A stretch of 64,000 nt of DNA from Mustelus asterias (taxonomy: Eukaryota). This document shows, piece after piece, positions 3,026 to 49,670 of the stretch. The stretch is taken from positions 1,550,001 through 1,614,000 of the forward strand of contig NW_027590120.1 in assembly GCF_964213995.1 (NCBI RefSeq). The letters run 5' to 3'. The notes under the pieces are model-generated. The model did no database searches. It saw only the letters and a list, made by a program, of their open reading frames with translations, and had not been told where the DNA came from. Within the stretch, counting starts at the first letter, position 1, and each line of letters opens with the position of its first letter. A program made the position numbers and the translations under genes.

Positions 3026-3447
3026 GATGAATCTATGAGGCGCTTCCCCAGAATCTGCGAGAAAGAGAAGCTGCACGAAAAACTCTCATATGCGCAAAAG
3101 TGAGTTACCAATGGAGCATGCATGGTGTGTGCACTCCAGATACCACATGACAGTTATCCTGGCTTCAACATTGGAGAGAAACTGGATGGTAAAAGAGGCA
3201 ACGGAGTGGATAGAGAAGCTTCATGAACACCCAGTGGAGGGTCTGAAACTCTGATAAGCATCTACGATATAAAATCTAAACTCTGCTTTTCTCTCCACGG
3301 ACACTGTAAAATCTGCCAAGCAACTCCAACATTTCTGTTTTAATTTCACATAATGTGGAGATGCCGGCGTTGGACTGGGGTAAACACAGTAAGAAGTTTA
3401 ACAACACCAGGTTAAAGTCCAACAGGTTTATTTGGTAGCAAAAGCCA

Positions 3448-3484
3448 CACAAGCTTTCGAAGCTCTAAGCCCCTTCTTCAGGTG
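3448..3484 (-). ncRNA. Minimal type I hammerhead ribozyme motif (Penelope arm)
   Basis: Minus strand reads cac-CUGAAGA-aggggc uuaga gcuuc-GAAA-gcuu-gug: conserved core, stem II hairpin, palindromic AAGCUU stem III, stem I cac/gug. Confidence 0.75.
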
Positions 3485-4528
3485 AGTGGGAATTCTGTTC
3501 ACAAACAGAACTTATAAAGACACAGACTCAATTTACATGAATAATGGTTGGAATGCGAATACTTACAACTAATCCAGTCTTTAAGAAACAAAACAATGGG
3601 AGTGGAGAGAGCATCAAGACAGGCTAAAAAGATGTGTATTGTCTCCAGACAAGACAGCCAGTGAAACTCTGCAGGTCCACGCAACTGTGGGAGTTACAAA
3701 TAGTGTGACATGAACCCAATATCCCGGTTGAGGCCGTCCTTGTGTGTGCAGAACTTGGCTATCAGTTTCTGCTCAGCGACTCTGCGCTGTCGTGTGTCGC
3801 GAAGGCCGCCTTGGAGAACGCTTACCCGAATATCAGAGGCCGAATGCCCGTGACCGCTGAAGTGCTCCCCAACAGGAAGAGAACAGTCTTGCCTGGTGAT
3901 TGTCGAGCGGTGTTCATTCATCCGTTGTTGCAGCGTCTGCATAGTTTTCATCCGTTGTCGCAGCGTCCATCCACCAGGTACACGGTACATACTCTTGCAA
4001 CTCGGCCAACGTTGTCTACCTGATACGCTGCAAGAAAGGATGTCCCGAGGCATGGTACATTGGGGAACCTATGCAGACGCTGCAACAACGGATGAATGAA
4101 CACCGCTCGACAATCACCAGGCAAGACTGTTCTCTTCCTGTTGGGGAGCACTTCAGCGGTCACGGGCATTCGGCCTCTGATATTCGGGTAAGCGTTCTCC
4201 AAGGCGGCCTTCGCGACACACGACAGCGCAGAGTCGCTGAGCAGAAACTGATAGCCAAGTTCTGCACACACAAGGACGGCCTCAACCGGGATATTGGGTT
4301 CATGTCACACTATTTGTAACTCCCACAGTTGCGTGGACCTGCAGAGTTTCACTGGCTGTCTTGTCTGGAGACAATACACATCTTTTTAGCCTGTCTTGAT
4401 GCTCTCTCCACTCCCATTGTTTTGTTTCTTAAAGACTGGATTAGTTGTAAGTATTCGCATTCCAACCATTATTCATGTAAATTGAGTCTGTGTCTTTATA
4501 AGTTCTGTTTGTGAACAGAATTCCCACT

Positions 4529-4565
4529 CACCTGAAGAAGGGGCTTAGAGCTTCGAAAGCTTGTG
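4529..4565 (+). ncRNA. Minimal type I hammerhead ribozyme motif (Penelope arm)
   Basis: cacCTGAAGAaggggcttagagcttcGAAAgcttgtg, the mirror copy of 3448-3484. Confidence 0.75.
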
Positions 4566-5270
4566 TGGCTTTTGCTACCAAATAACCCTGTTGGACGTTA
4601 ACCTGCTGTTGTTAAACTTCTTACTTAATTTCACATATACAGCATCAACAGTATTTTGCTTTTATTTACCTGGAGAGAGTTGAGAATGTGGAACTGATTA
4701 CCAGGAGGGTCTGAGATTCCATGAGCAAGTCTCAGCTGAAAACACAATTCATTGCTGAAAGCGCAAAAGGATTCACTGGGTTACCCAAATCACTGACACA
4801 ACAGGCGAATCACACGAGAGAAAGACAATTCAGATACTCCACTTGTGCAAAGCCAGTTCCTCAGTTTCCCAGGATCTAAAACACAATTTACGAAAGGTTC
4901 AAGGGATTTGATTCACAATTAACTCATTCCAAATGGAAGATGTGGTTTAAATTTTTGGTATAGGGGGCATAATTTGTTCACTTACTCCTGCAACTGCAGT
5001 AAATTCACATCTAACTGTAAGTACAGAAACAGAAAATGCTGAATGACCTCAAAACGTTGGCTCTATTCGCTCTCCACAGATGCTGTGAGATGTGCAGAGA
5101 AGTTCCAGCATTTTCTGCTTTTGTTTCCGATTTCAGCATCTGCAATATTTTACCTTCATCTAACTGAAGGTGTTTGTTCAGCTCTTAATTACATCCAGGA
5201 TGTAACTGGTGGAGGGATTTTATGCATTCGTCCCATAGCTCAGATTATAAAAAGATCATATATCTGAATG

Positions 5271-16231: not shown

Positions 16232-16270
16232 AGTTTCTGTACGGGGCCTGTATCAGTTTGAATCACTGTG
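16232..16270 (-). other. 23-spacer recombination signal sequence
   Basis: CACAGTG, 23 bp, ACAGAAACT on the - strand, directly after the V exon. Confidence 0.9.
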
Positions 16271-16578
16271 AATGTTCAGCGCACTATAATGCATCCCACT
16301 GTCACTCAGCTGTACATCTGTCAGTGTTAAACTGAAGAAACGATCCAACATTCGGAGTGCTGAAGAGATACGTTCTCCCACACGCTCCGCTTTCTCTGCT
16401 TCTCCCTCCGAATTCCTTTTGATTAAAAATGCCGGCTTCTCCCCCGGATTTTGTCGTTACCAGACCAGATCATAGCGGCGGCCGCCTGTGGAGTATGAAC
16501 AGGGCAACACCATGCGTTCTCCGTCCAAACATGATACTGACGGTGCAGTTTGCTTAACAGTATTAGAATAACACAATC
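16271..16578 (-). pseudogene. TCR V alpha/delta-type segment pseudogene
   Basis: Manual translation: (G)LCYSNTVKQTAPSVSCLDGERMVLPCSYSTGGRRYDLVW*RQNPGEKPAFLIKRNSEGEAEKAERVGERISSALRMLDRFFSLTLTDVQLSDSGMHYSALNI. Stop in the WYRQ motif, second Cys lost, followed by a 23-RSS. Not in the ORF track. Confidence 0.88.
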
Positions 16579-17774: not shown

Positions 17775-18225
17775 CTTAAAGGATGACCCTTCCAGGACAG
17801 AATAGCCCGTTTGATTGTGACCCATTGCAAAAACATGCATTTCTTCCACCACCGACGAACAGTGGCAGCAGTGTGGACGATATACAAAATGCACTGCAGG
17901 AACTCACAATGGCTCCTCAGCCAACACTTTCCAAACCCAACAATATTACCATCTCGAAGGGCACGGGGAGCAAACTTGTCGAAACACCACGACCTGGAGG
18001 TTTCCCTTCCAAGCCATACATTATTTCAAACATATCGCCATTCCTTCACTGTCGCTGGGTCAAAATCGTAGAACTTCCACTCTAACAGCACCGTGAGAAT
18101 ACCTATGCCACAGGGACTGCAACAATTCAAGAAAGCAACTCACCACCACATTCTCAACGGTGATTTAAGGATGGTTAATGACTGCTGGCCGAATCAGCGA
18201 AGCGTACGTCCCTTGAATTAATAAC
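17775..18225 (+). mobile_element. Degenerate LINE 3' end (L2/CR1 group; tail shared with SacSINE1-like SINEs)
   Basis: ccttcactgtcgctgggtcaaaatc...ctgcaacaattcaagaaagcaactcaccaccac...ggatggttaatgactgctggcc. The tail resembles the SINE ends at ~37500-37550 and ~48270-48320. Confidence 0.6.
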
Positions 18226-18359
18226 AAAATAATCAACCTGAGGCCAAATAAAGCAGGGGATCCAGACACTGTGTGTCGCTTAATGGCATTCTGTGGTCGG
18301 GGACTGCGAGGCAGCAGTAGCTGTCGTGATCTTCGATGAAACGTTCACATCTCAGTGTC

Positions 18360-18965
18360 GCCATTAAATTCTTGAGCATTGTTTTAAAAGATGGGCGTGG
18401 CCTAATTTACCGATGTTCGGGTCTGAAGTATTCAGTGCTGCTTTAAGATCCAGTGTCCAAGAGCAGTCCCGATCAGCAGCCTCCAGTTCCCCGTCATGTA
18501 AACCATCAGCTCCAGGCAGCAGAGAGATGGGAATCCTTGTTTTCACACTGTGTCTGTTTACACCGTGAGTACCGATAAAACTAACCCATACTGTGTGGAT
18601 TGAATATAAGGCTGGGTTTTGGCTGCGGGAGAGTTTCGACTGGAGCTTCACAGCTGAGTTTGCCCATTTAAATTCTTGAGTTTTATTTTTACGGTGGGCG
18701 TGGCCTATTATACAAATGAAAAGACCTAAAATATTTTAGGATAGCACCGAGATCCAGTCTCTCAGAGCAGTCCAGCTCTGCATTCTCCACCAACCACCCC
18801 TCCCCCCCCCCCCCCCCACCCCCCCACCCTCTCACTCCACCTGTCATATAATAAATAATCTCCAGACAGGAGCGATGGGAATCCTCCTTGTTTTCAGCCT
18901 GTGAGCCTGTTTACCACGTGAGTACCGATCACACTAACACACATTTTGTGGATTGAATATAAAGC
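18360..18965 (+). promoter_or_regulatory. Tandemly duplicated V promoter + leader unit (two copies ~300-350 bp apart)
   Basis: ccatt(t)aaattcttgag...gggcgtggccta...gatccagt...ATGGGAATCCT...gtgagtaccgat...tgtggattgaatataa occurs at ~18361-18610 and ~18664-18962. Leader exons are 18527-18564 (38 nt) and 18875-18917 (43 nt). Confidence 0.75.
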
Positions 18966-19341
18966 TACCCCAGTCCATCTCAATTACAGACACTGTCTGG
19001 TGTTTTACCCCGTTGAGTGATTCGGCTTTGATCGTCCATTAAACTTTGTGTTTAACTTCCAGGATCTTTCAGTCAGTCAGTGACACAGAGCCCGGCAGCG
19101 GTGACCAGGAAGGAGTGTCAGTCCCTCACCATCACCTTTGTTTTACATGGAGTTTATGATTCAGAAAATGGCCATTGTTTCAGACAAACCCAAACCGGGA
19201 CAGCTCACCAGCGGAGGGCGATTTGTTGTGTCGGTGAATAAAGCAAGAAGGACATTTTCGCTGGGAATTCATAATGTGAGAGTAGAAGACACCGCCACCT
19301 ATTACTGTAAAGCGCAGCGCTGGAGGGCACAGATGGGGCAC
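18875..19341 (+). pseudogene. NAR-TCR variable segment (VNAR-like), pseudogene; leader 18875-18917 + V exon 19063-19341
   Basis: Leader MGILLVFSL*ACLP|gtgagt (phase 1, TGA at 18902). V exon after ttccag: SFSQSVTQSPAAVTRKECQSLTITFVLHGVYDSENGHCFRQTQTG / frameshift ~19200 / QLTSGGRFVVSVNKARRTFSLGIHNVRVEDTATYYCKAQRWRAQMGH. VNAR hallmarks: short domain lacking the CDR2 region, GGR.V.SVNK, YYCKA; extra FR1 Cys (KEC). Confidence 0.85.
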
Positions 19342-19369
19342 CACAGTTCAAGAGAGAACGATAAATACC
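19342..19369 (+). other. 12-spacer RSS after NAR-TCR V
   Basis: CACAGTT, caagagagaacg (12 bp), ATAAATACC (7/9 match to ACAAAAACC). The 23-bp register gives only aggacaatc. Confidence 0.7.
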
Positions 19370-19689
19370 TCAGGACAATCAAAGCATCTATTCCTAGCAA
19401 TTCCCTGGTTCGGCAACTGGACTTGTCGGACAGATGTTATTACCACTACAATCTGGTTTAACATCGTTCTAATGTCCTCCTTTCTGTTATCATTCTTTAA
19501 TGTTTTTTCTCCATTTATAAGAATCTTCTATCTCTGCTCCTGTTCCTGGGAGCTCGGAGAGTCATATCGAACAGGTTGATCCAATGTTTTTTTTTAAACA
19601 ATCAAGATCCATTATTGATCTAAATCCCTGGATTAATTGAGAAAAGCCGACGGTCCAGTAATGGGTACTCGACAGTTTGAGGTGTCAGT

Positions 19690-19781
19690 CATTCTTGTGC
19701 TGTGCTGACTGAGAGCAGTGTCACGGTGGAGAGAATGGAGATTTGCAGATGGGTCCGGGACGGTGGTGACTGTCACAGCCG
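19690..19781 (+). other. NAR-type J segment (19729-19781) with 5' 23-spacer RSS (19690-19728)
   Basis: cattcttgt, 23 bp, cacggtg, then REWRFADGSGTVVTVTA-G|gtgagt. The DGxGT motif is IgNAR-J-like rather than FGxG; phase 1 splice donor. Confidence 0.88.
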
Positions 19782-20049
19782 GTGAGTGAGTCCAAATCCT
19801 CCCGTGTTACAGAATGTTTAGGTTAGTGTTCAACGTCAGATAAGATTCATTTTATCACTTCAATTCTCTGCTACAAAAACAGGGTGGTTTCGAGGGGAAG
19901 AATTTCAATTACAGATTTAGACTTGGGTGCACATTCAGAAACCAAAGTCGGTTCTGGATGTAAGACCGCGGTGAAGCAGTTTGAGACCCCGAAGGACAGG
20001 TAGCCTACGGGCAAGGAGTTTCAACTGACCCCATCTGCATCATCTGCGT

Positions 20050-20270
20050 CTTCCCTTCTGCTGTCAGACTTTTGAATGGACTTAACTTTGCATTAAGTTG
20101 ATCTTTCTCCACATCCTAGCTATGACTGTAACACTACATTCTGCACTCTCTCGTTTCTTTCTCTATGAACGGTATGTTTTTTTCTTGAAAGCGCGCAAGA
20201 AACAGTACTTTTCACTGTATGTTAATACATCCGACAATAATAAATCAAATCAAATCAAAAAATCAAAATC
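20050..20270 (+). mobile_element. Rex1/Babar-type 3' tail fragment
   Basis: Same tail as 9290-9490, ending acaataataaatcaaatcaaatc. Confidence 0.7.
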
Positions 20271-21174
20271 ATTGGTTTAAGGGAGATATCGGGTAATCCT
20301 CACAACATTCCACAGTCCCACTCTCCTAACTTGTTTCAATGAGTGCACATTGTGGACACTCCGAAACCTGCTTCTTGCTCTTCGCTGGAAGAGCGCAGAG
20401 TCGCCGAGCACAGGATGTTTCTCTGATCGAGGAAATATGAACGACATACCGGGAGAGGTAACCTTACATTGTATTGGCCGGTCCAGTACCTGCCGCGGCA
20501 TGAAAACTGGAACATGACACAAATATCTTCAAAGATCCTTTTACAGTTGTAATATTTCATTTTACCGTTGTAATATTTCATTCTTGGGCAAAAAATAACG
20601 AAAAGTAGTCATATTCTAACAGATTTTTATTGCCTCCCTGTAAATAATCATTCCTGTTTGAAAGAATTGTTAAGGTTTTGAATTACACTCTCTTCCACGT
20701 ATTGAACGCTAATAATTGAGAAATGGGTTTGCATTTTTTTTCGAATTCAAAACATTGCGCTCATTGAAAAATGAACAGTTCCTAAAAGACCAGATTGTGT
20801 CGAGGCTGTGGGCGCTCAGCCGTTCCACAGATGTTTTTTTGATTACTAATTGCATCAATGGATTTGAGAATAGGACGCAGAGTGATCGTTCAGGTAGATG
20901 GCGAGAACTAAACTTCCTATTTGTACATTGGTCCCCAAGGTAGATTTGTCTGAAGTGTTCCTATTTCTTATATCTTTTATTATCAGCTTTAATTTCTTAT
21001 ACTCCCGAGAAAATAAGTGATCAGCAATGTGTATTGATATAGAAAGCTTGGAAAATGTTTGCCGTTTGTCTCTCGAGCCCGGGTCGGACATGAAGAAACA
21101 ACAGAGAAATATGATATAATTTCAAGGAGGTACATGTGCAGAAACTGATTCTTCGGTGGGAGAGTTTTTTTTAT

Positions 21175-21480
21175 TCAGTCGCGTGACATGGACCTCGCTG
21201 GCTGGCCAGCATTTATTGTGCATCCCACGTCACCCTTGTAATTTGAGACGACAGTTGAGCGTCATCCACATTGCTGTGGATCTGGAATCACAAATAGGCC
21301 AGACCAGGTAAGGAAGACAGATTTCTTGCCTCAAGGACATTGGTGAACCAGATGGGTTTTTCCAACAATCTATAATGGTTTCATGGTCAGCAGTACATTC
21401 CTAATTCCAGATTCGTTTTATATTTGAACTCGAATTCCACCATCTGCCGAGGCAGTATTCGGACCTAGTCCCTAGAGCAA
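21175..21480 (-). mobile_element. SacSINE1-like (Deu-type) SINE
   Basis: Reverse complement of the elements at 37205-37550 and 47975-48330 (ccagaccaggtaagg...agatttc, ttccaccatctgccg). Confidence 0.65.
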
Positions 21481-21507
21481 GGAGACATTTACAGATGAAA
21501 TTGCTAT

Positions 21508-22130
21508 CATAGAGTCATCGAGGTTTACAGCATGGAAACAGGGCATTCAGCCCAACTTGTCCAAGCTGCCCTTATTTTTTTAAACCCCTAAGCTAATCCC
21601 AATTGCCCGCATTTGGCCCATATCCCTCTATACCCATCGTACCCATGTAACTATCTAAATGCTTTTTAAAAGATAAAATTGTACCCGCCTCTACTACTAC
21701 CTCTGGCAGCTTGTTCCAGATACTCACCACCTTCTGTGTGAAAAAATTGTCCCTCTGGACACTTTTGCATCTCTCCCCTCTCACCTTAAACCTATGCCCT
21801 CTAGTTTTAGACTCCGCTACCTTTGGGAAAAGATATTGACTATCTACCTTGTCTATGCCCTTCATTATTTTATAGACCTCTATAAGGTCACCCCTCAGCC
21901 TCCTACGCTCCAGAGAAAAAAGTCCCAGTCTATTCAGCCTCTCCTTATAACTCAATCCATCAAGTCCCGGTAGCATCCTAATAGATCTTTTCTGTACTCT
22001 TTCTAGTTTAATAATATCCTTTCTATAATAGGGTGACCAGAATTGCACACAGTATTCCAAATGTGGCCTTACCAATGTCTTGTACAATTTTCACAAGACG
22101 TCCCAACTCCTGTATGCAATGTTCTGACCG
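21508..22130 (-). mobile_element. CR1 LINE 3' end
   Basis: ORF 21593..22087(-): YKTLVRPHLEYCVQFWSP...FFTQKVVSIWNKLP. Confidence 0.9.
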
Positions 22131-23284
22131 ATGAATGGTTTGAACCATTCGGATATATTTGCACGGAGACACATCAGAATGTGAAGGTAGCTGATTTGAG
22201 AAACGGCGCAATAAATTTATCGCATAGCTTGAAAAGTATGGGCAGGAGAGACGATTAAATAGACACACGGCTCAGGATGTTATTGGTTATTTCGTGTTCG
22301 AGATGGGAAGTGCCGTACAATAACAACTTTCGACCAGCTAGGCTGAGTGGCCTATTCATGGTAAGTTGCAAATGTTTAATGAAAATCTCAGAAACTGTTC
22401 CGCTTGGAAAGCATAGGAAGCAATCAACCAATGGGCTGAAGGATTTAGTACTCAGACACTCTGACGAAGCACTTCCCAGTGAGTAACAGTAAAACCACTG
22501 CGGAAACTGAGCAGGCTGAACCCAACCGACAATTGAGAGTCCTGAGGATACGTTCTAATGACAGTTTGAAACCGCCAAGAATAGAAAACAACTCGGAAAC
22601 AGAAATAAAGCTAAATCAACTTGATTTTTTTCTGATAAAAGTAAAACGATAGAATTGATGGAGGAAAACAGACAAGTAGTCCAAAGGCAGGCAGGAGTTA
22701 TCTTGTCGGATTGAACTGCGGAAAATGTTGAATTTTGACCCACAGGTATCCATTGCAATTTGGCTTAACGGTTGCGGACGAATATCTGTAGCATGTGCTG
22801 AACTTTAAGATGTGCAGGGATATAAAACTGATGATTGTCCTTCAGGCAATCAAATCTGGACAGTAATTAATTGAGGAGGAAAATGAACATTTATGATTTT
22901 TAAAAAAGAATTCTGGTCCATACTTCACCAATATATTTAGAAGCAAATATTGAATAAAAGATGGAATCACATAGCTCAGAAGGGCATATTTCTGCCAATA
23001 ATGACAATTATTTGAAGGTGCTGTCAATGTTACATATTCACCCTATTGTATTTGACTTGGCACTGGAACCTTGTCCTGTTCCAGAGGATTATTCCTCTCA
23101 ATATCCGTTTGAAAGTTAATATTGTACCTGCTCCCAGTACCATCACTTCCACAGTGCTTTTCAATTCGTTGTGAAAAAAATGTTTGGAGATTTGTTCGGC
23201 TTGTTTATTTGCAATAGTCGCTAAATTTCGAATCAACTTTGATTAAGCAAATTACCGCAAAATACAAGCGCATTCACACGATTC

Positions 23285-23494
23285 ACTGCAACGTTATAAC
23301 AATGTTTGGGTCAATGCACCTAACCAGCACATCTCTCAGTCTGTGGGAGGAAACTGGAGCACTCGCAGGAAACCAAGGCAGACAGAGGGAGAGTGTGCAA
23401 ACTCCAGACACACTGTGACCCAAGCCGGAAATTGAACCCAGGTCCCAGGTGCTGTGAGGCAGCAGTGCTAACCACTGTGTCACCGTTAAGTGAA
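23285..23494 (-). repeat. HE1-type SINE segment; inverted duplicate of 27373-27582
   Basis: 210 bp reverse complement of 27373-27582 including non-SINE flanks; I saw only one mismatch. Confidence 0.9.
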
Positions 23495-23533
23495 GAGTGG
23501 CTAAGCAAATAATTATTTTATTCTATCCTGCAG

Positions 23534-23836
23534 ATTCCAGTTAATCTTTGTCACAGAGTTCTCTTCTCCACAACTCTGCTGCAGGTGACACGGTTACTTT
23601 AAGCTGTGAATATTCAGGGAACTGTCAGTCCAATGTACACTGGTACAGTCAGTCCTCAGGACAGGCTCCGAAATACCTGCTTCAGACACACACTTCAGGA
23701 GAGGAGAATGAAAATGCTGCCGAGGGCAGAATTTCGGCTTCCACCGATTCTTCCTTCGAAATCAGCCGCTTAAGGATCTCGAAACTAGAAATTAACGACT
23801 CAGCTGAGTATTACTGTGCGCTGAGTCGGCCCAGAG
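23534..23836 (+). pseudogene. Leaderless supporting TCR Vdelta of NAR-TCR (single early stop codon)
   Basis: Acceptor cctgcag, phase 1: (D)SS*SLSQSSLLHNSAAGDTVTLSCEYSGNCQSNVHWYSQSSGQAPKYLLQ...RISAS...LRISKLEINDSAEYYCALSRPR. Canonical Cys, Trp and YYC intact, extra Cys in CDR1, TAA at 23542-23544. No leader exon recognised between the J and this exon. Confidence 0.85.
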
Positions 23837-24403
23837 CACAGTGATACAGAACACGGAGAGAACTGTACATGAACCTGAACATGGCGAGTATTACAGACAC
23901 AGTGACACGGAACAGGGAGAGAGCTGTACGAAAACTAAACATGTTGAGGATTACAGACACAGTGATACATAACAAGGGGAGATCTGTACAAAAACCTGAA
24001 CATGATGAGGTTTACAGACAAACATGGAAACAGAACACGGAGAGAGCTGTACAGAAACCTGAACATAATGAAGGTTTAATGAACATAATGAACATAATAC
24101 AGACACAGTGATAAGGACTTTGGAGAGAGTTGTCCAAAAACATAAACGCCGTGTAGCTTACAAATACAGTGGCGCAGAACACGGAGAGAGCTGTACAAAA
24201 GCCTGAACATGGTGAGGATTACAGACACAGTGATACAGAATTCGCAGAGAGTTGTACAAAAAACTGAACATGGTGAGAATTACAGACACAATGATACAGA
24301 ACATGGAGAGAGCTGTTTAAAAACCTGAATATGGTGAGGATTACAGACACAGTAATACAGAACCCGGAAAGAGCTGCACAAAAACCCGGGTATGGTGAGG
24401 ATT
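23837..24403 (+). repeat. Tandem array of nine 23-spacer RSS units (~61-bp period)
   Basis: Heptamer/nonamer starts: 23837/23867, 23898/23928, 23958/23988, 24021(dead)/24051, 24104/24134, 24165/24195, 24226/24256, 24287/24317, 24348/24378. All spacers are 23 bp. Confidence 0.93.
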
Positions 24404-27215: not shown

Positions 27216-30172
27216 GGCACTTGCCTTACTCACTCAGCAATGGATACCATTACCATTAGCATGGCGGATCCGGTATACACTACACGTTATTCAAGCTGTT
27301 TACTATCCAATTTTGGCTGTTGTTGGTGTCCCTGGTAAGTCTCCGGAGCGGATTTTTAACTACTTTTGTTATTTCACTTAACGGTGACACAGTGGTTAGC
27401 ACTGCTGCCTCACAGCACCTGGGACCTGGGATCAATTTCCGGCTTGGGTCACAGTGTGTCTGGAGTTTGCACACTCTCCCTCTGTCTGCCTTGGTTTCCT
27501 GCGAGTGCTCCAGTTTCCTCCCACAGACTGAGAGATGTGCTGGTTAGGTGCATTGACCCAAACATTGTTATAACGTTGCAGTTCAGTTCACGGCTTCATT
27601 CATCTTCTCTGGATCCAGACATTTTCCAAGCAGCGCATAAGACACACCTATCCCCACCCAAAGGTTGCTCTCACATTTCTGTTAGAAACATGGAATCATA
27701 AATGCATAGAATCCCTATAAGGCAGGAGGAGGCCGTTCGGAAACAAAACAATGAAGTAATTGGCAAGGAAACAAGCCCCAGAAACTAAAGAATAGCTAGC
27801 AGTAGAAATTAGGCAGTGAAACGAAAAGTTTACATGAAGATGAAAGTGTAAAGTAAACCAGGGATTGGAATTTGAGCAGGGTACTGATAAAGATTGCTAC
27901 TCCACGGTGCACAGAGATCTGAGAGTAGATTGACAATACTGGTACTGAAAACTGGACACCAAAATCGCTAATGTGCGCATCAGGAAAATGTTCTTAATGA
28001 ACAAGCTCTCACAGCACGACAATGCTTCAGCCATCAGAGGTACGCTCACTAACTATTTACAGTTGAAAGTTTGGAATTCTCCTTTGCTGGTCACTTAGTG
28101 TTGCATTCAGGCACGTAAAAAGACGACATCAATGTCCTTTTAATGTGAACACAAGGCAAGGGTGACTAATAGAGTGTAGGTTTCCCAAGTGAAGAATTAA
28201 CCCAATTCGTGTGGTACGAGTTCGACATACAAGTCCAGCCCATCATCTGCCGATCCTTCCTTGCACCTGATTTAAAACTTGTCTCTTCAATTTATAATGT
28301 CTTTCGTGCCTTCAGAATTCATAGAAATTATCGCACATTTTGCTCCTCCAGTTACCCACTAGCTAACGCTTTACTTCTGGATTGCTCCATCACCCCTCCA
28401 TGCCACGTCACGTTTGCCTCCCCTCCCTCCACACAGTTAGCCTTTGTTATTCAGCAACAAAGGAATTAGGAGCAAATTCTACCCTTCCAGCCTGCTCTGC
28501 CATTTAATCAAATAATGGTTTATCTCTCCCCGGTCTCAAACCCACTTTCCCACCTGTTCCCCATATCGCTTGATCCCTTTATTATTAGCGATATATCTAT
28601 CTTCTTCTTGAAATTATTCAACGATTGAGATTGCACGCGCCATGGGGCAGATAGTTGCACAAATTCAACACCCTCTGTGAGACGTAATTCCTCCATGTCT
28701 CATTTCTAAATCCACCGCCTCTCAAACTATATCTGTGACCTCTTGTTCGAGATTGCCCCATTAGAGGAAGCATTTGGTCTAGTTTTACTGCATCAACCCG
28801 TTTTAAAAGTTTATGTACCTCGATCAGATCCCTTTCTCATCCTTCTAAACTCCAATGAGTATAAGCTCAAACTGCTTAATGCTTCCTCATAAGTCATCTC
28901 TGCTTCCTCCCACTATGCTGTGGAGATGCCGGTGTTGGACACCGGTGGGCACAGTAAGAAGTCTCACAACACCAGGTTAAATCCAACAGGTTGATTTGCA
29001 ATCACGAGTTTTAGGAGCACTACTCCTTGAAGGAGCAGCACTCCAACATCTGGTGGTTCGAAATCAACCTCTTGGAATTTAACCTGGTGTTGCAAGACCT
29101 CTTCTTGCGTTCTCCCACTATATAACATACCTTTCCCTTTCTCCTTTCTAGTCAATTTATTTCAATACATCACGGGATGCAGTAACACATCTCATTAACT
29201 CCTCAATCAAAATGGTAACTTTCCCCACAACGTGATGGATAATTTTAGTGCTAATTTTCCTTCCTTACAGGGAACTTAATCACGATTGTCATTCTCACGT
29301 ACAAACAATGTGGTCTCTCCAAATGTGTTGCTCGTTATCTGGTGGCGATGTCAGTGGCTGATCTACTCGTCATTATGCTGGACCTGATATTGAGACAAAT
29401 TCTGATACTTTACGCAGAATCGTTTTATTTCTTGCACTCCATCCCCATGTGTAATTTCCACGCTGCCCTACTTTATGCTGCCACTGACTGTTCAGTCTGG
29501 TTCACCGTCGCTTTCACCTTTGATCGATTTGTGGCTATTTGTTGCCAGAAGCTGAAAAGTAAATATTGCAGTGAGAAAACGGTGGCCGTGGTTCTCGGAA
29601 CAGTGACTGTGCTGAGCTGTTTAAAGAATATTTTCTGGTGCTTTTTGTTTTTAGGTGGGTATTCGCTGTTAAACGACCCCTGGTTTTGTGACTACACATT
29701 AGACGTTGTGTTCTCTCCGCTCTGGGGAGCATTTGAATTCATCCATAGCATTCGAACCCCATGTGTCCCGTTTGTCCTGATTCTGTTGCTTAATGTTTTC
29801 ACCATCAGACATATCTTGGTGATGAGCAATGCCCGCAGGAGACTTCGGGCTCACAGCTGTGGGGAGAATTACAAAGATCCAGAGATGGAGAGTCGAAGGA
29901 AATCAATCATTTTAGTACTGGTTATCTCGGCCAATTTCATCTTTTTATGGTCAACGTTAATGATATATTCGATATCGAGGCGGATGTATGGTTTAGGGTA
30001 TCAGTCTCTCAACTTAGATCTTTACATTCTGGAATTAGGTTTCATGTTGCAGCTCCTTAGTTGCTGCACAAACACTGGGATTTATGCCATCACCCAGCGT
30101 AAGTTCAGAGAACAGTTGAAGAATGCGCTGAAATATCCTTTCATTCCAATTCTCCAATTCATTCAAAAATGA
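27070..30172 (+). CDS. GPR139/GPR142-like class A GPCR, two exons (27070-27334, 29271-30172), 388 aa
   Basis: Exon 1 ends YYPILAVVGVP-G|gtaagt. Exon 2 after ccttacag continues in phase: GNLITIVIL..CGLSKCVARYLVAMSVADLL...SVWFTVAFTFDRFVAICC...DPEMESRRKS...LLSCCTNTGIY. 265+902 nt = 389 codons with no internal stop. Confidence 0.9.
27373..27582 (+). mobile_element. HE1-type SINE segment in GPCR intron
   Basis: tRNA-like head cggtgacacagtggttagcactgctgcctcacagc and V-SINE core; inverted twin of 23285-23494. Confidence 0.88.
28917..29111. mobile_element. Miniature palindromic Penelope-derived element
   Basis: Starts tgtggagatgccggtgttggac...cagtaagaagtctcacaacaccaggttaaatccaacagg like 3353 and folds back (ttaacctggtgttg). 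10-bp TSD ctcccactat at 28907-28916 and 29112-29121. Confidence 0.75.
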
Positions 30173-49168: not shown

Positions 49169-49207
49169 AGTTTTTGTACAGGGTTGAGCCTGCTTTCTAT
49201 CACTGTG
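49169..49207 (-). other. Near-consensus 23-spacer RSS
   Basis: CACAGTG, 23 bp, ACAAAAACT on the - strand. Confidence 0.95.
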
Positions 49208-49670
49208 AGTCCCAGAAAGCGCAATAATACACGGCAGCGTCTGTCAACTGAAGACCCGAGATGATTAAATTGATGGATTTCTTCGAGGTCTGGAGATCTG
49301 CAGAGAAACGATTTTCTGCAAAATCTGCTTTAAATTCATCGCCATCGCTGTCCTTCCTCAGTGTATACGATAGCTGTGTATCTGAGTTTTGCCTATACCA
49401 GAATAATCTATAACTGTTCCTCGTAGTTTCATAGCTACAGGGTAATGACACCGCTTCTCCTTCTGTCTTTGTAACCGAGGAGAATATCTGATTGACAGAA
49501 TTGGCATGACATAGATCTGGAAAGAAAACATATTCAAACAGGAAAATATATGAACTGTGGTTATTTGATATTTAATTTACCCATGTTTGGGAAATGATAA
49601 AGATATGAAATGCATTACACTCAAAATTACCTGCGAGAAATGCACCCCACAAAACCCAGATGCAGATCAT
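49208..49670 (-). CDS. Intact TCR V alpha/delta gene segment (leader 49631-49670, V exon 49208-49516)
   Basis: MICIWVLWGAFLA|DLCHANSVNQIFSSVTKTEGEAVSLPCSYETTRNSYRLFWYRQNSDTQLSYTLRKDSDGDEFKADFAENRFSADLQTSKKSINLIISGLQLTDAAVYYCAFWD. GT-AG phase-1 intron, conserved Cys/Trp/YYC, no stops. Confidence 0.92.

What the first reader, a model, noticed from the sequence alone, without database searches (positions are those of the whole stretch)
18875..23875. Complete NAR-TCR double-variable-domain cassette (VNAR-like V, J, leaderless supporting Vdelta)
Seen: leader, VNAR-like V with an extra FR1 Cys (KEC), J with DGSGT and a phase-1 donor at 19781, then 3.75 kb downstream a phase-1 acceptor into a TCR V with an extra CDR1 Cys (SGNCQ) and no recognisable leader. 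The J donor and V acceptor join in frame (G+AT = Asp). Established: shark NAR-TCR is a TCR delta chain with a VNAR-like domain on a leaderless supporting Vdelta, with paired non-canonical cysteines proposed to link the domains. The ORF track misses most of this structure.
Basis: partly seen in the sequence, partly recalled or inferred. Interest (0 to 1): 0.7.

Follow-up and report, generated by a model that had tools for sequence, protein, structure and literature searches.

The report
Broken, V-D-fused shark NAR-TCR gene
This is a broken copy of the known shark two-domain T-cell receptor gene (NAR-TCR), from a subfamily inherited with its V and D pieces already fused, likely by the immune recombinase acting in a germ cell, so intact sister copies would need one cut-and-join step fewer.

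Summary
The anatomy is real: leader, VNAR-like V with FR1 Cys, J, and a leaderless TCR V with CDR1 Cys. Both V domains group with NAR-TCR-type relatives. It is not 'complete', though: the leader and the supporting V each carry an in-frame stop, and the V has lost its first canonical Cys and has an 11-nt frameshift. (1) There is no D: the V ends in a 12-RSS facing J's 23-RSS, and the DNA between them is homologous to the D-to-J interval of D-bearing sisters. V and D are fused in the germline in 40 of 65 V places, intact sisters show purifying selection, and three other species labels carry the junction. (2) Nine tandem 61-bp copies of the 23-RSS follow the supporting V; such arrays are typical of supporting Vs, absent behind 31 control Vs, and show no sign of selection. 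This scan noted both features before, on other DNA. I found neither in the papers I could search; the three key NAR-TCR papers were not held.

The parts
18195..18614 (+). Partial tandem duplicate of the promoter/leader region; its leader (ATG 18527, donor 18565) is 38 nt, phase 2, so out of frame with the V
18875..18917 (+). NAR-TCR leader exon, 43 nt, phase 1, with in-frame TGA at 18902-18904 (Cys TGT in sisters)
19063..19341 (+). NAR-type V exon with fused D remnant at its 3' end; FR1 Cys 19116 kept; canonical Cys lost (TTT 19137); 11-nt deletion after 19200; YYC 19300
19342..19369 (+). 12-RSS (CACAGTT-12-ATAAATACC), homologous to the 3' RSS of the NAR-TCR D of unjoined sisters
19370..19689 (+). 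Former D-to-J interval; with the flanking RSSs 65-66% identical end to end to the D-J interval of five D-bearing cassettes, no match to their V-D interval
19690..19728 (-). 23-RSS of J (CACCGTG-23-ACAAGAATG)
19729..19781 (+). NAR-TCR J segment, open frame, donor GT at 19782
23285..23494 (+). Interspersed repeat (SINE-like; family label not tested) 40 nt upstream of the supporting V acceptor; near-identical inverted copy at 27373-27582
23534..23836 (+). Leaderless supporting V-delta exon; TAA at 23542-23544; Cys 23605, CDR1 Cys 23623, Trp 23641, YYC 23809
23837..24403 (+). Tandem array of nine ~61-bp units, each a 23-RSS plus a 22-nt linker; 7 of 9 are RSS-like (heptamer at most 1, nonamer at most 2 mismatches)

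Best explanation
This is a pseudogene copy of a shark NAR-TCR cassette whose V and D are fused in the inherited DNA, likely through one old RAG cut-and-join in a germ cell; intact sister copies would build the antigen-binding domain by a single V(D)-to-J rearrangement. Shown: the lesions, the missing V-D interval, the D-derived 12-RSS, intact sisters, the junction in other species. Inferred from the 12/23 rule and NAR-TCR biology: in an intact sister RAG would join the 12-RSS to J's 23-RSS, deleting about 390 nt; the supporting V would join through its first 23-RSS to a D-delta (12-D-23) and J-delta; splicing leader > VDJ > supporting V-D-J > C-delta would give the three-domain chain, with one diversified junction in the tip instead of two. 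The spare RSS copies behind the supporting V are most likely a passenger minisatellite that RAG can occasionally cut; a join at a spare copy would carry the TGA of the first heptamer and be sterile.
For: Lesions; the same in twin contig C108 (99.89% over 9.9 kb); contig of run X1 spans 19094-20078 with 0 differences, X3 19297-19534 and X4 19204-19465 likewise. Family: tree; intact sister L003 V matches VNAR structures in its top 30 of 32 PDB hits. Fusion: the 12-RSS-to-J interval of 5 fused cassettes aligns to the D-J interval of 5 unjoined ones in 25 of 25 pairs (scores 132-193, shuffle maxima at most 47), and to the V-D interval at about chance level in 25 of 25 (scores 21-31, shuffle maxima 27-39). 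40 of 65 V places are of this class, with the heptamer 42-43 nt after the YYC motif in the 37 that keep it; one origin is not rejected (AU p 0.50). Contigs from organisms B, C and D bridge the junction (3 of 4 runs laid, 2 studies). At least 12 of 40 pass leader, V, heptamer and J checks; the two intact subgroups differ at dN/dS 0.25-0.42 (9 non-independent pairs; Fisher p 0.002 for one pair). An independent recent V-D join (L053) keeps the same last 8-9 nt of D. Germline RAG joining, including VD-J, is known in shark Ig (PMC2193156 Discussion; PMC5192425 passages). Array: RSS positions of later units are no better kept than spacer and linker (0.095 vs 0.073 divergence, permutation p 0.83); 4 of 4 independent supporting-V junctions in the assembly used the first RSS.
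Against: The fused class is not one clade in the free tree (3 changes; one side of a branch in 30% of bootstrap trees). The 12-nt tail also aligns with the start of the V's own old RSS (CAC..ATGGG), which fits a non-RAG deletion; Lee et al. report no RSS remnants in RAG-type germline joints. No expression data were obtained for any fused cassette. The two stop codons were not bridged by a listed short-read piece (table cut), and X1 may be the assembly's own source. The array persists in distant sharks, which pure drift explains poorly. No D-delta of the type searched was found on the window's contig C88 (17 candidates scored).
Confidence: 0.78

Rival explanations
1. Same fused cassette, but V and D were fused by an ordinary deletion using the shared TGGG between the start of the V's RSS spacer and the D, not by RAG.
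For: Tail CAC-ATGGG aligns to heptamer start plus spacer start of unjoined Vs such as L041 with a 4-nt gap.
Against: Needs a second 4-nt deletion inside the heptamer; the recent join L053 keeps the same D end with no RSS remnant; the locus shows many other RAG-type joints, including two perfect signal joints (L043, L051).
Confidence: 0.3
2. One reading: a complete, working NAR-TCR cassette; the breaks are assembly errors.
For: All parts are present in order with correct splice phases.
Against: Four disabling changes, two of them base substitutions to stops, are shared by a second contig; short-read contigs carry the deletion and the lost Cys.
Confidence: 0.02
3. The RSS array is functional: spare 23-RSSs attract RAG to the leaderless V, or take a first sterile cut that leaves the first RSS for a second try.
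For: 43 of 59 unrearranged supporting Vs have 2 or more RSS-like units against 0 of 31 conventional Vs; 45 exact tandem-RSS matches genome-wide, 0 for the control pattern, 42 next to a listed supporting V and the other 3 the displaced array of L043; the repeat is seen in Hemiscyllium and Rhincodon gene models; tail-to-tail cassette pairs meet within about 2 nt of a spare heptamer boundary (one shared old event).
Against: No selection signal on later units; second heptamer looks decayed in the orectolobiform read-throughs (Gln where His is expected); 4 of 4 captured junctions used the first RSS and no array ended in a D-delta.
Confidence: 0.3
4. The V-D junction is a somatic T-cell rearrangement captured in the assembly.
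For: The assembly does hold single-copy RAG-type junctions that are 99.2-99.9% identical to unjoined twins.
Against: The junction is shared by 26 distinct V exons diverged to about 80%, and by other species.
Confidence: 0.01
5. The D-less V-12/23-J layout is ancestral and never had a D.
For: A V-J cassette obeys the 12/23 rule by itself.
Against: The RSS and all DNA behind it are homologous to the D's 3' flank, and the tail ends in a D-like TGGGACAC; with the IgNAR V as outgroup the class is nested among D-bearing Vs (long outgroup branch).
Confidence: 0.04

Closest known systems
NAR-TCR, the doubly rearranging TCR-delta of cartilaginous fishes (Criscitiello 2006, not held; features read in passages of PMC1845163, PMC3457774, PMC5931798, PMC12227049)
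   Same: Leader, IgNAR-like V with a-b loop Cys and no Trp of WYRK, own J, leaderless supporting V-delta with CDR1 Cys.
   Different: This copy is dead; V and D are germline-fused, so the first domain would need one join, where the passages describe separate VDJ rearrangements; a tandem RSS array follows the supporting V.
Germline-joined shark Ig genes (VD-J, VD-DJ, VDJ IgM clusters; NS4 light chains; PMC5192425 passages, PMC2193156 abstract and Discussion part 1)
   Same: Partial V-D joining fixed in the germline beside unjoined sisters, then duplicated.
   Different: Here it is a T-cell receptor cassette, and the RAG origin is inferred, not shown by P nucleotides.
Marsupial TCR-mu with germline-joined supporting V (PMC3457774 passages)
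   Same: Three-domain TCR with a pre-assembled part.
   Different: In TCR-mu the supporting domain is fully joined; here the N-terminal antigen-binding V is half joined. The two receptors are described as convergent.

Membership tests
NAR-TCR cassette | N-terminal V related to IgNAR V, not to TCR V | tested here: met
   Tree 100/99 with NAR-type and IgNAR V (IgNAR label); sister V top 30 of 32 PDB hits are VNARs. No IgL V was in the tree; no nurse shark NAR-TCR sequence was available.
NAR-TCR cassette | Extra Cys in the a-b loop and no Trp of WYRK in the NAR V | tested here: met
   KEC Cys at 19116; HCF at the Trp position; Cys present in 10 of 10 other-species models used.
NAR-TCR cassette | Leader on the NAR V | tested here: met
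   43-nt phase-1 exon present, but with a stop in this copy.
NAR-TCR cassette | Supporting V-delta without leader, with CDR1 Cys | tested here: met
   No leader candidate in the whole intron, controls positive; Cys 23623; groups with supporting Vs 98/96.
NAR-TCR cassette | Own rearranging segments with RSS (V, D, J) | tested here: inconclusive
   V and J with a legal 12/23 pair are present; a free D is not, its remnant is fused to V. Filed as a variant.
NAR-TCR cassette | Expression as a three-domain delta chain; inter-domain disulfide (described as putative) | not testable with these tools
   No usable RNA run; no structure job was run.
Functional NAR-TCR gene | Open frames in leader, V and supporting V; both canonical Cys | tested here: not met
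   TGA 18902, TTT 19137, frameshift after 19200, TAA 23542.
Germline-joined antigen-receptor gene | Junction inherited (shared by diverged copies and other species) | tested here: met
Germline-joined antigen-receptor gene | RAG signature at the joint (RSS cleanly removed, P or N bases) | tested here: inconclusive
   Tail fits V end + 4 extra bases + D end, but also an RSS remnant.

The most novel reading that the evidence does not exclude
RAG has edited the shark NAR-TCR locus in the germline several times (V-D fusion, a supporting-V-to-D-delta fusion shared by three copies, inverted duplications centred on a spare RSS), and selection has kept a V-D-fused subfamily as a one-step, low-diversity, innate-like T-cell receptor, the T-cell counterpart of germline-joined shark antibodies.
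Probability: 0.35. Interest if true: 0.72.

Novelty: new variant of a known kind. Interest (0 to 1): 0.45.

Why it matters
The copy itself is dead and ordinary. Its subfamily matters: germline joining is well described for shark antibody genes, and for TCRs the papers read name only marsupial TCR-mu. A fused, selected NAR-TCR class would extend germline RAG activity to a T-cell locus and predicts a short, semi-fixed CDR3 (..KAQ[HY]WYY..) that can be looked for in neonatal thymus. The RSS array offers a natural test of how RAG chooses among adjacent signals.

Tried and rejected
No RNA holder was listed for an intact sister cassette; this is no evidence on expression. Papers not held: Criscitiello 2006, Ott 2021 (16), Deiss 2019 (21), Matz 2021 (62), Flajnik 2024 (65); the one supplement of PMC3964593 held no hit for NAR-TCR or RSS. 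Paper searches listed nothing on germline-joined NAR-TCR or tandem RSS arrays (listings only; one search was swamped by other meanings of RSS). PDB searches with fragments of the window's own domains were uninformative: N-terminal 45 aa gave no hit, C-terminal 40 aa and the supporting V gave generic antibody hits. The first leader scan missed its controls and was replaced. Homolog searches returned no protein named NAR-TCR. Selection on spare RSS units was tested and not found. Use of a distal RSS in a join to D-delta was looked for by eye in 59 array ends and not seen. Rescue by the upstream duplicate leader was rejected (phase 2). The linkers as D-like segments were rejected: no good reverse 12-RSS in the array. 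Run X16 was not counted as bridging the fused junction (under 31 letters on one side). Bioinformatic counts are places in an assembly with many 99% duplicates, not gene numbers.
Full report
Observation. A leader scan found no candidate in the whole 3.75-kb intron; the same scan found one within 380 nt of 17 of 22 conventional Vs, 34 of 54 NAR-type Vs and 2 of 56 supporting Vs.

The copy is a pseudogene. The leader has TGA at 18902 where sisters have TGT. The V has TTT for its first canonical Cys (19137) and an 11-nt deletion after 19200 that leads to a stop at 19239. The supporting V reads D-S-S-stop after the splice: TAA at 23542 occurs in 2 of 65 supporting-V rows, the window and its twin. 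The twin on contig C108 is 99.89% identical over 9.9 kb and shares all four lesions. A contig of run X1 covers 19094-20078 without a difference; X3 and X4 cover 19297-19534 and 19204-19465 likewise. X1 may be the assembly's source, and the two stops were not bridged by a listed piece. A duplicate leader at 18527 is 38 nt long, in the wrong phase.

Family. An intact sister V (L003) matches VNAR structures in its top 30 of 32 PDB hits, and 52 longer elasmobranch gene models with the same V, most followed by J and a second V; none is named NAR-TCR. In a protein tree of 52 rows the window's V, read with X at the break, lies in a 100/99 group with 8 NAR-type Vs of G000, 10 from other genera and one IgNAR V (label); the second V lies in a 98/96 group of supporting Vs; 16 conventional TCR Vs (every second of those extracted) fall outside both (long-branch warnings apply to the deep joins). 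Proteins with the closest species label were left out of the other-species set as possibly not independent. The defining features (leader, a-b loop Cys, no Trp of WYRK; leaderless supporting V with CDR1 Cys) were read in passages of PMC1845163.

No D: a germline V-D fusion. The V ends in a 12-RSS that faces J's 23-RSS across 387 nt. I fetched 65 of the 66 places that match a NAR-type V in G000. Forty are of the window's kind (3 of them lack the YYC motif and were classed by the tail), 22 have a V with a 22-bp-spacer RSS, mostly followed by 12-D-12 and a 22/23-RSS J, one is a separate recent V-D join, one a hybrid joint, one an IgNAR V. These are places, not genes: 26 of 48 distinct V exons are of the fused kind. 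The 12-RSS-to-J interval of five fused cassettes aligns over most or all of its length with the D-to-J interval of five unjoined ones (65-70% identity, 25 of 25 pairs far above shuffles) and not with their V-to-D interval. The tail between V end and heptamer is about 12 nt and ends in a D-like TGGGACAC. In the V-exon tree the class needs 3 changes, but one origin is not rejected (AU p 0.50). Laid on intact sister L007, contigs of organisms D (11 differences in 388 nt), B (15 in 435) and C (48 differences, 12 gaps) bridge the junction: 3 of 4 runs, 2 studies. So the fusion is inherited and older than those species splits.

Do sisters work? At least 12 of 40 pass checks of leader, V frame with both Cys, CAC heptamer and J; four more fail only my J pattern, and L004's J reads open. 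Between the two intact subgroups dN/dS is 0.25-0.42 (9 pairs that share one branch), against 0.34-2.1 for pairs with a damaged member (p 0.002 for one pair). That points to purifying selection after the fusion, if the origin is single. Expression was not tested.

How it arose. Best reading: a RAG coding joint in a germ cell (V end, four extra bases, last eight bases of D). The independent join L053 keeps the same D end, and VD-J germline joins are known in shark IgM (PMC5192425 passages; PMC2193156 abstract and first part of Discussion). Against it, the tail also aligns to the start of the V's old RSS, which a microhomology deletion would explain. I put RAG at about two to one.

The RSS array. 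Nine 61-bp units follow the supporting V, 7 of them RSS-like. Of 69 supporting-V places, 4 were truncated and dropped and 6 are already joined; 52 of the remaining 59 have two or more units and 43 have two or more RSS-like ones, against 0 of 31 conventional Vs with enough flank (one row dropped; unit counts are lower bounds). A genome-wide exact tandem-RSS pattern gave 45 matches and 0 for its control; 42 lie just behind a listed supporting V and 3 are the displaced array of L043. Read-through tails of 7 of 19 gene models match the array (Hemiscyllium 5, Rhincodon 1, Chiloscyllium 1; 0 of 380 shuffles), five over 28-33 residues that cross into a second unit whose heptamer looks decayed; a contig of organism C runs into unit 2. 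RSS positions in 44 later units are not better kept than the rest (p 0.83). The V frame stops within the first heptamer in 49 of 59 rows, so a join at a later unit would be sterile. The four independent supporting-V junctions in the assembly (L043, with a perfect signal joint and all four units retained; L040; L070; one shared by L014-L016) all used the first RSS. Following a lead from note e1-8591136, I found that tail-to-tail cassette pairs meet linker end to linker end, within about 2 nt of a heptamer boundary in the best-preserved copies (33 of 59 rows carry the motif, chosen after viewing; one old event). This fits a single germline cut at a spare RSS. Passenger repeat that RAG can cut is my best reading; a function is not excluded.

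Prior knowledge. NAR-TCR is known (passages of PMC1845163, PMC12227049, PMC3457774, PMC6795676, PMC5931798). Paper searches (listings and abstracts' starts) showed nothing on a germline-joined NAR-TCR or on RSS arrays, but Criscitiello 2006, Deiss 2019 and Ott 2021, with their supplements, were not held and may describe either. The RSS consensus and the 12/23 rule are from my own knowledge. This scan's earlier notes report both features on other DNA; I had reached both readings before looking, and they are not independent support.

Verdict. Real NAR-TCR cassette, dead in this copy, of a V-D-fused subfamily: a new variant of a known kind. Interest 0.45.

Noticed in passing
window 23285-23494 and 27373-27582: Two inverted copies of a SINE-like repeat, 99.5% identical over 210 nt (next-best copies among fetched loci about 85%), flank the supporting V and its array 3.9 kb apart; also in the C108 twin. 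Suggests conversion between inverted arms or a recent inversion/duplication.
   Followed up: partly
window 16270-16550 (-) and 49207-49500 (-): Two conventional TCR-type V segments on the minus strand, each with a single 23-RSS; the first is a pseudogene (stops), the second has an open exon and a leader candidate.
   Followed up: partly
L043 (G000:C122:392453-399200): Inversion inside a cassette: NAR D coding end joined to the supporting V, with a perfect signal joint between the D's 3' 12-RSS and the first unit of the array; 98-99.5% identical to unrearranged twin L042. Somatic or recent germline is open.
   Followed up: partly
L051 (G000:C110:114770 -): NAR V coding end fused to the inverted J RSS (hybrid joint), plus a perfect signal joint between the V's RSS and a D-delta 5' 12-RSS.
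   Followed up: partly
L053, L010, L019, L055: Single-copy V-D (L053) and D-J (L010, L019, L055) joins; L019 has GC-rich extra bases next to the D's 5' RSS. The assembly may hold lymphocyte DNA or recent germline events.
   Followed up: partly
L014, L015, L016: Three cassettes 96-97% identical share one supporting-V-to-D-delta junction and have no array: likely a second inherited join.
   Followed up: partly
L007, L008, L011, L027, L030, L061-L063: Tail-to-tail cassette pairs whose arrays meet linker end to linker end near a heptamer boundary; often one member is intact and the other dead.
   Followed up: partly
G000: A D-delta 3' flank matches about 17 places on many contigs, some about 20 kb behind a supporting V, which hints at several small TCR-delta clusters.
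   Followed up: no
window 3388-3947 and 4066-4625: 560-nt inverted repeat, 99% complementary, with 118 nt between the arms.
   Followed up: no
run X16 on L007:1074-1515: A contig at high depth skips from the V end to J with 31 other letters between: possibly a fully germline-joined V-D-J cassette in another species.
   Followed up: no
P0001, P0003: Gene models from Carcharodon and Heterodontus with two NAR V-J units before one supporting V; may be tandem duplicates or prediction artefacts.
   Followed up: no
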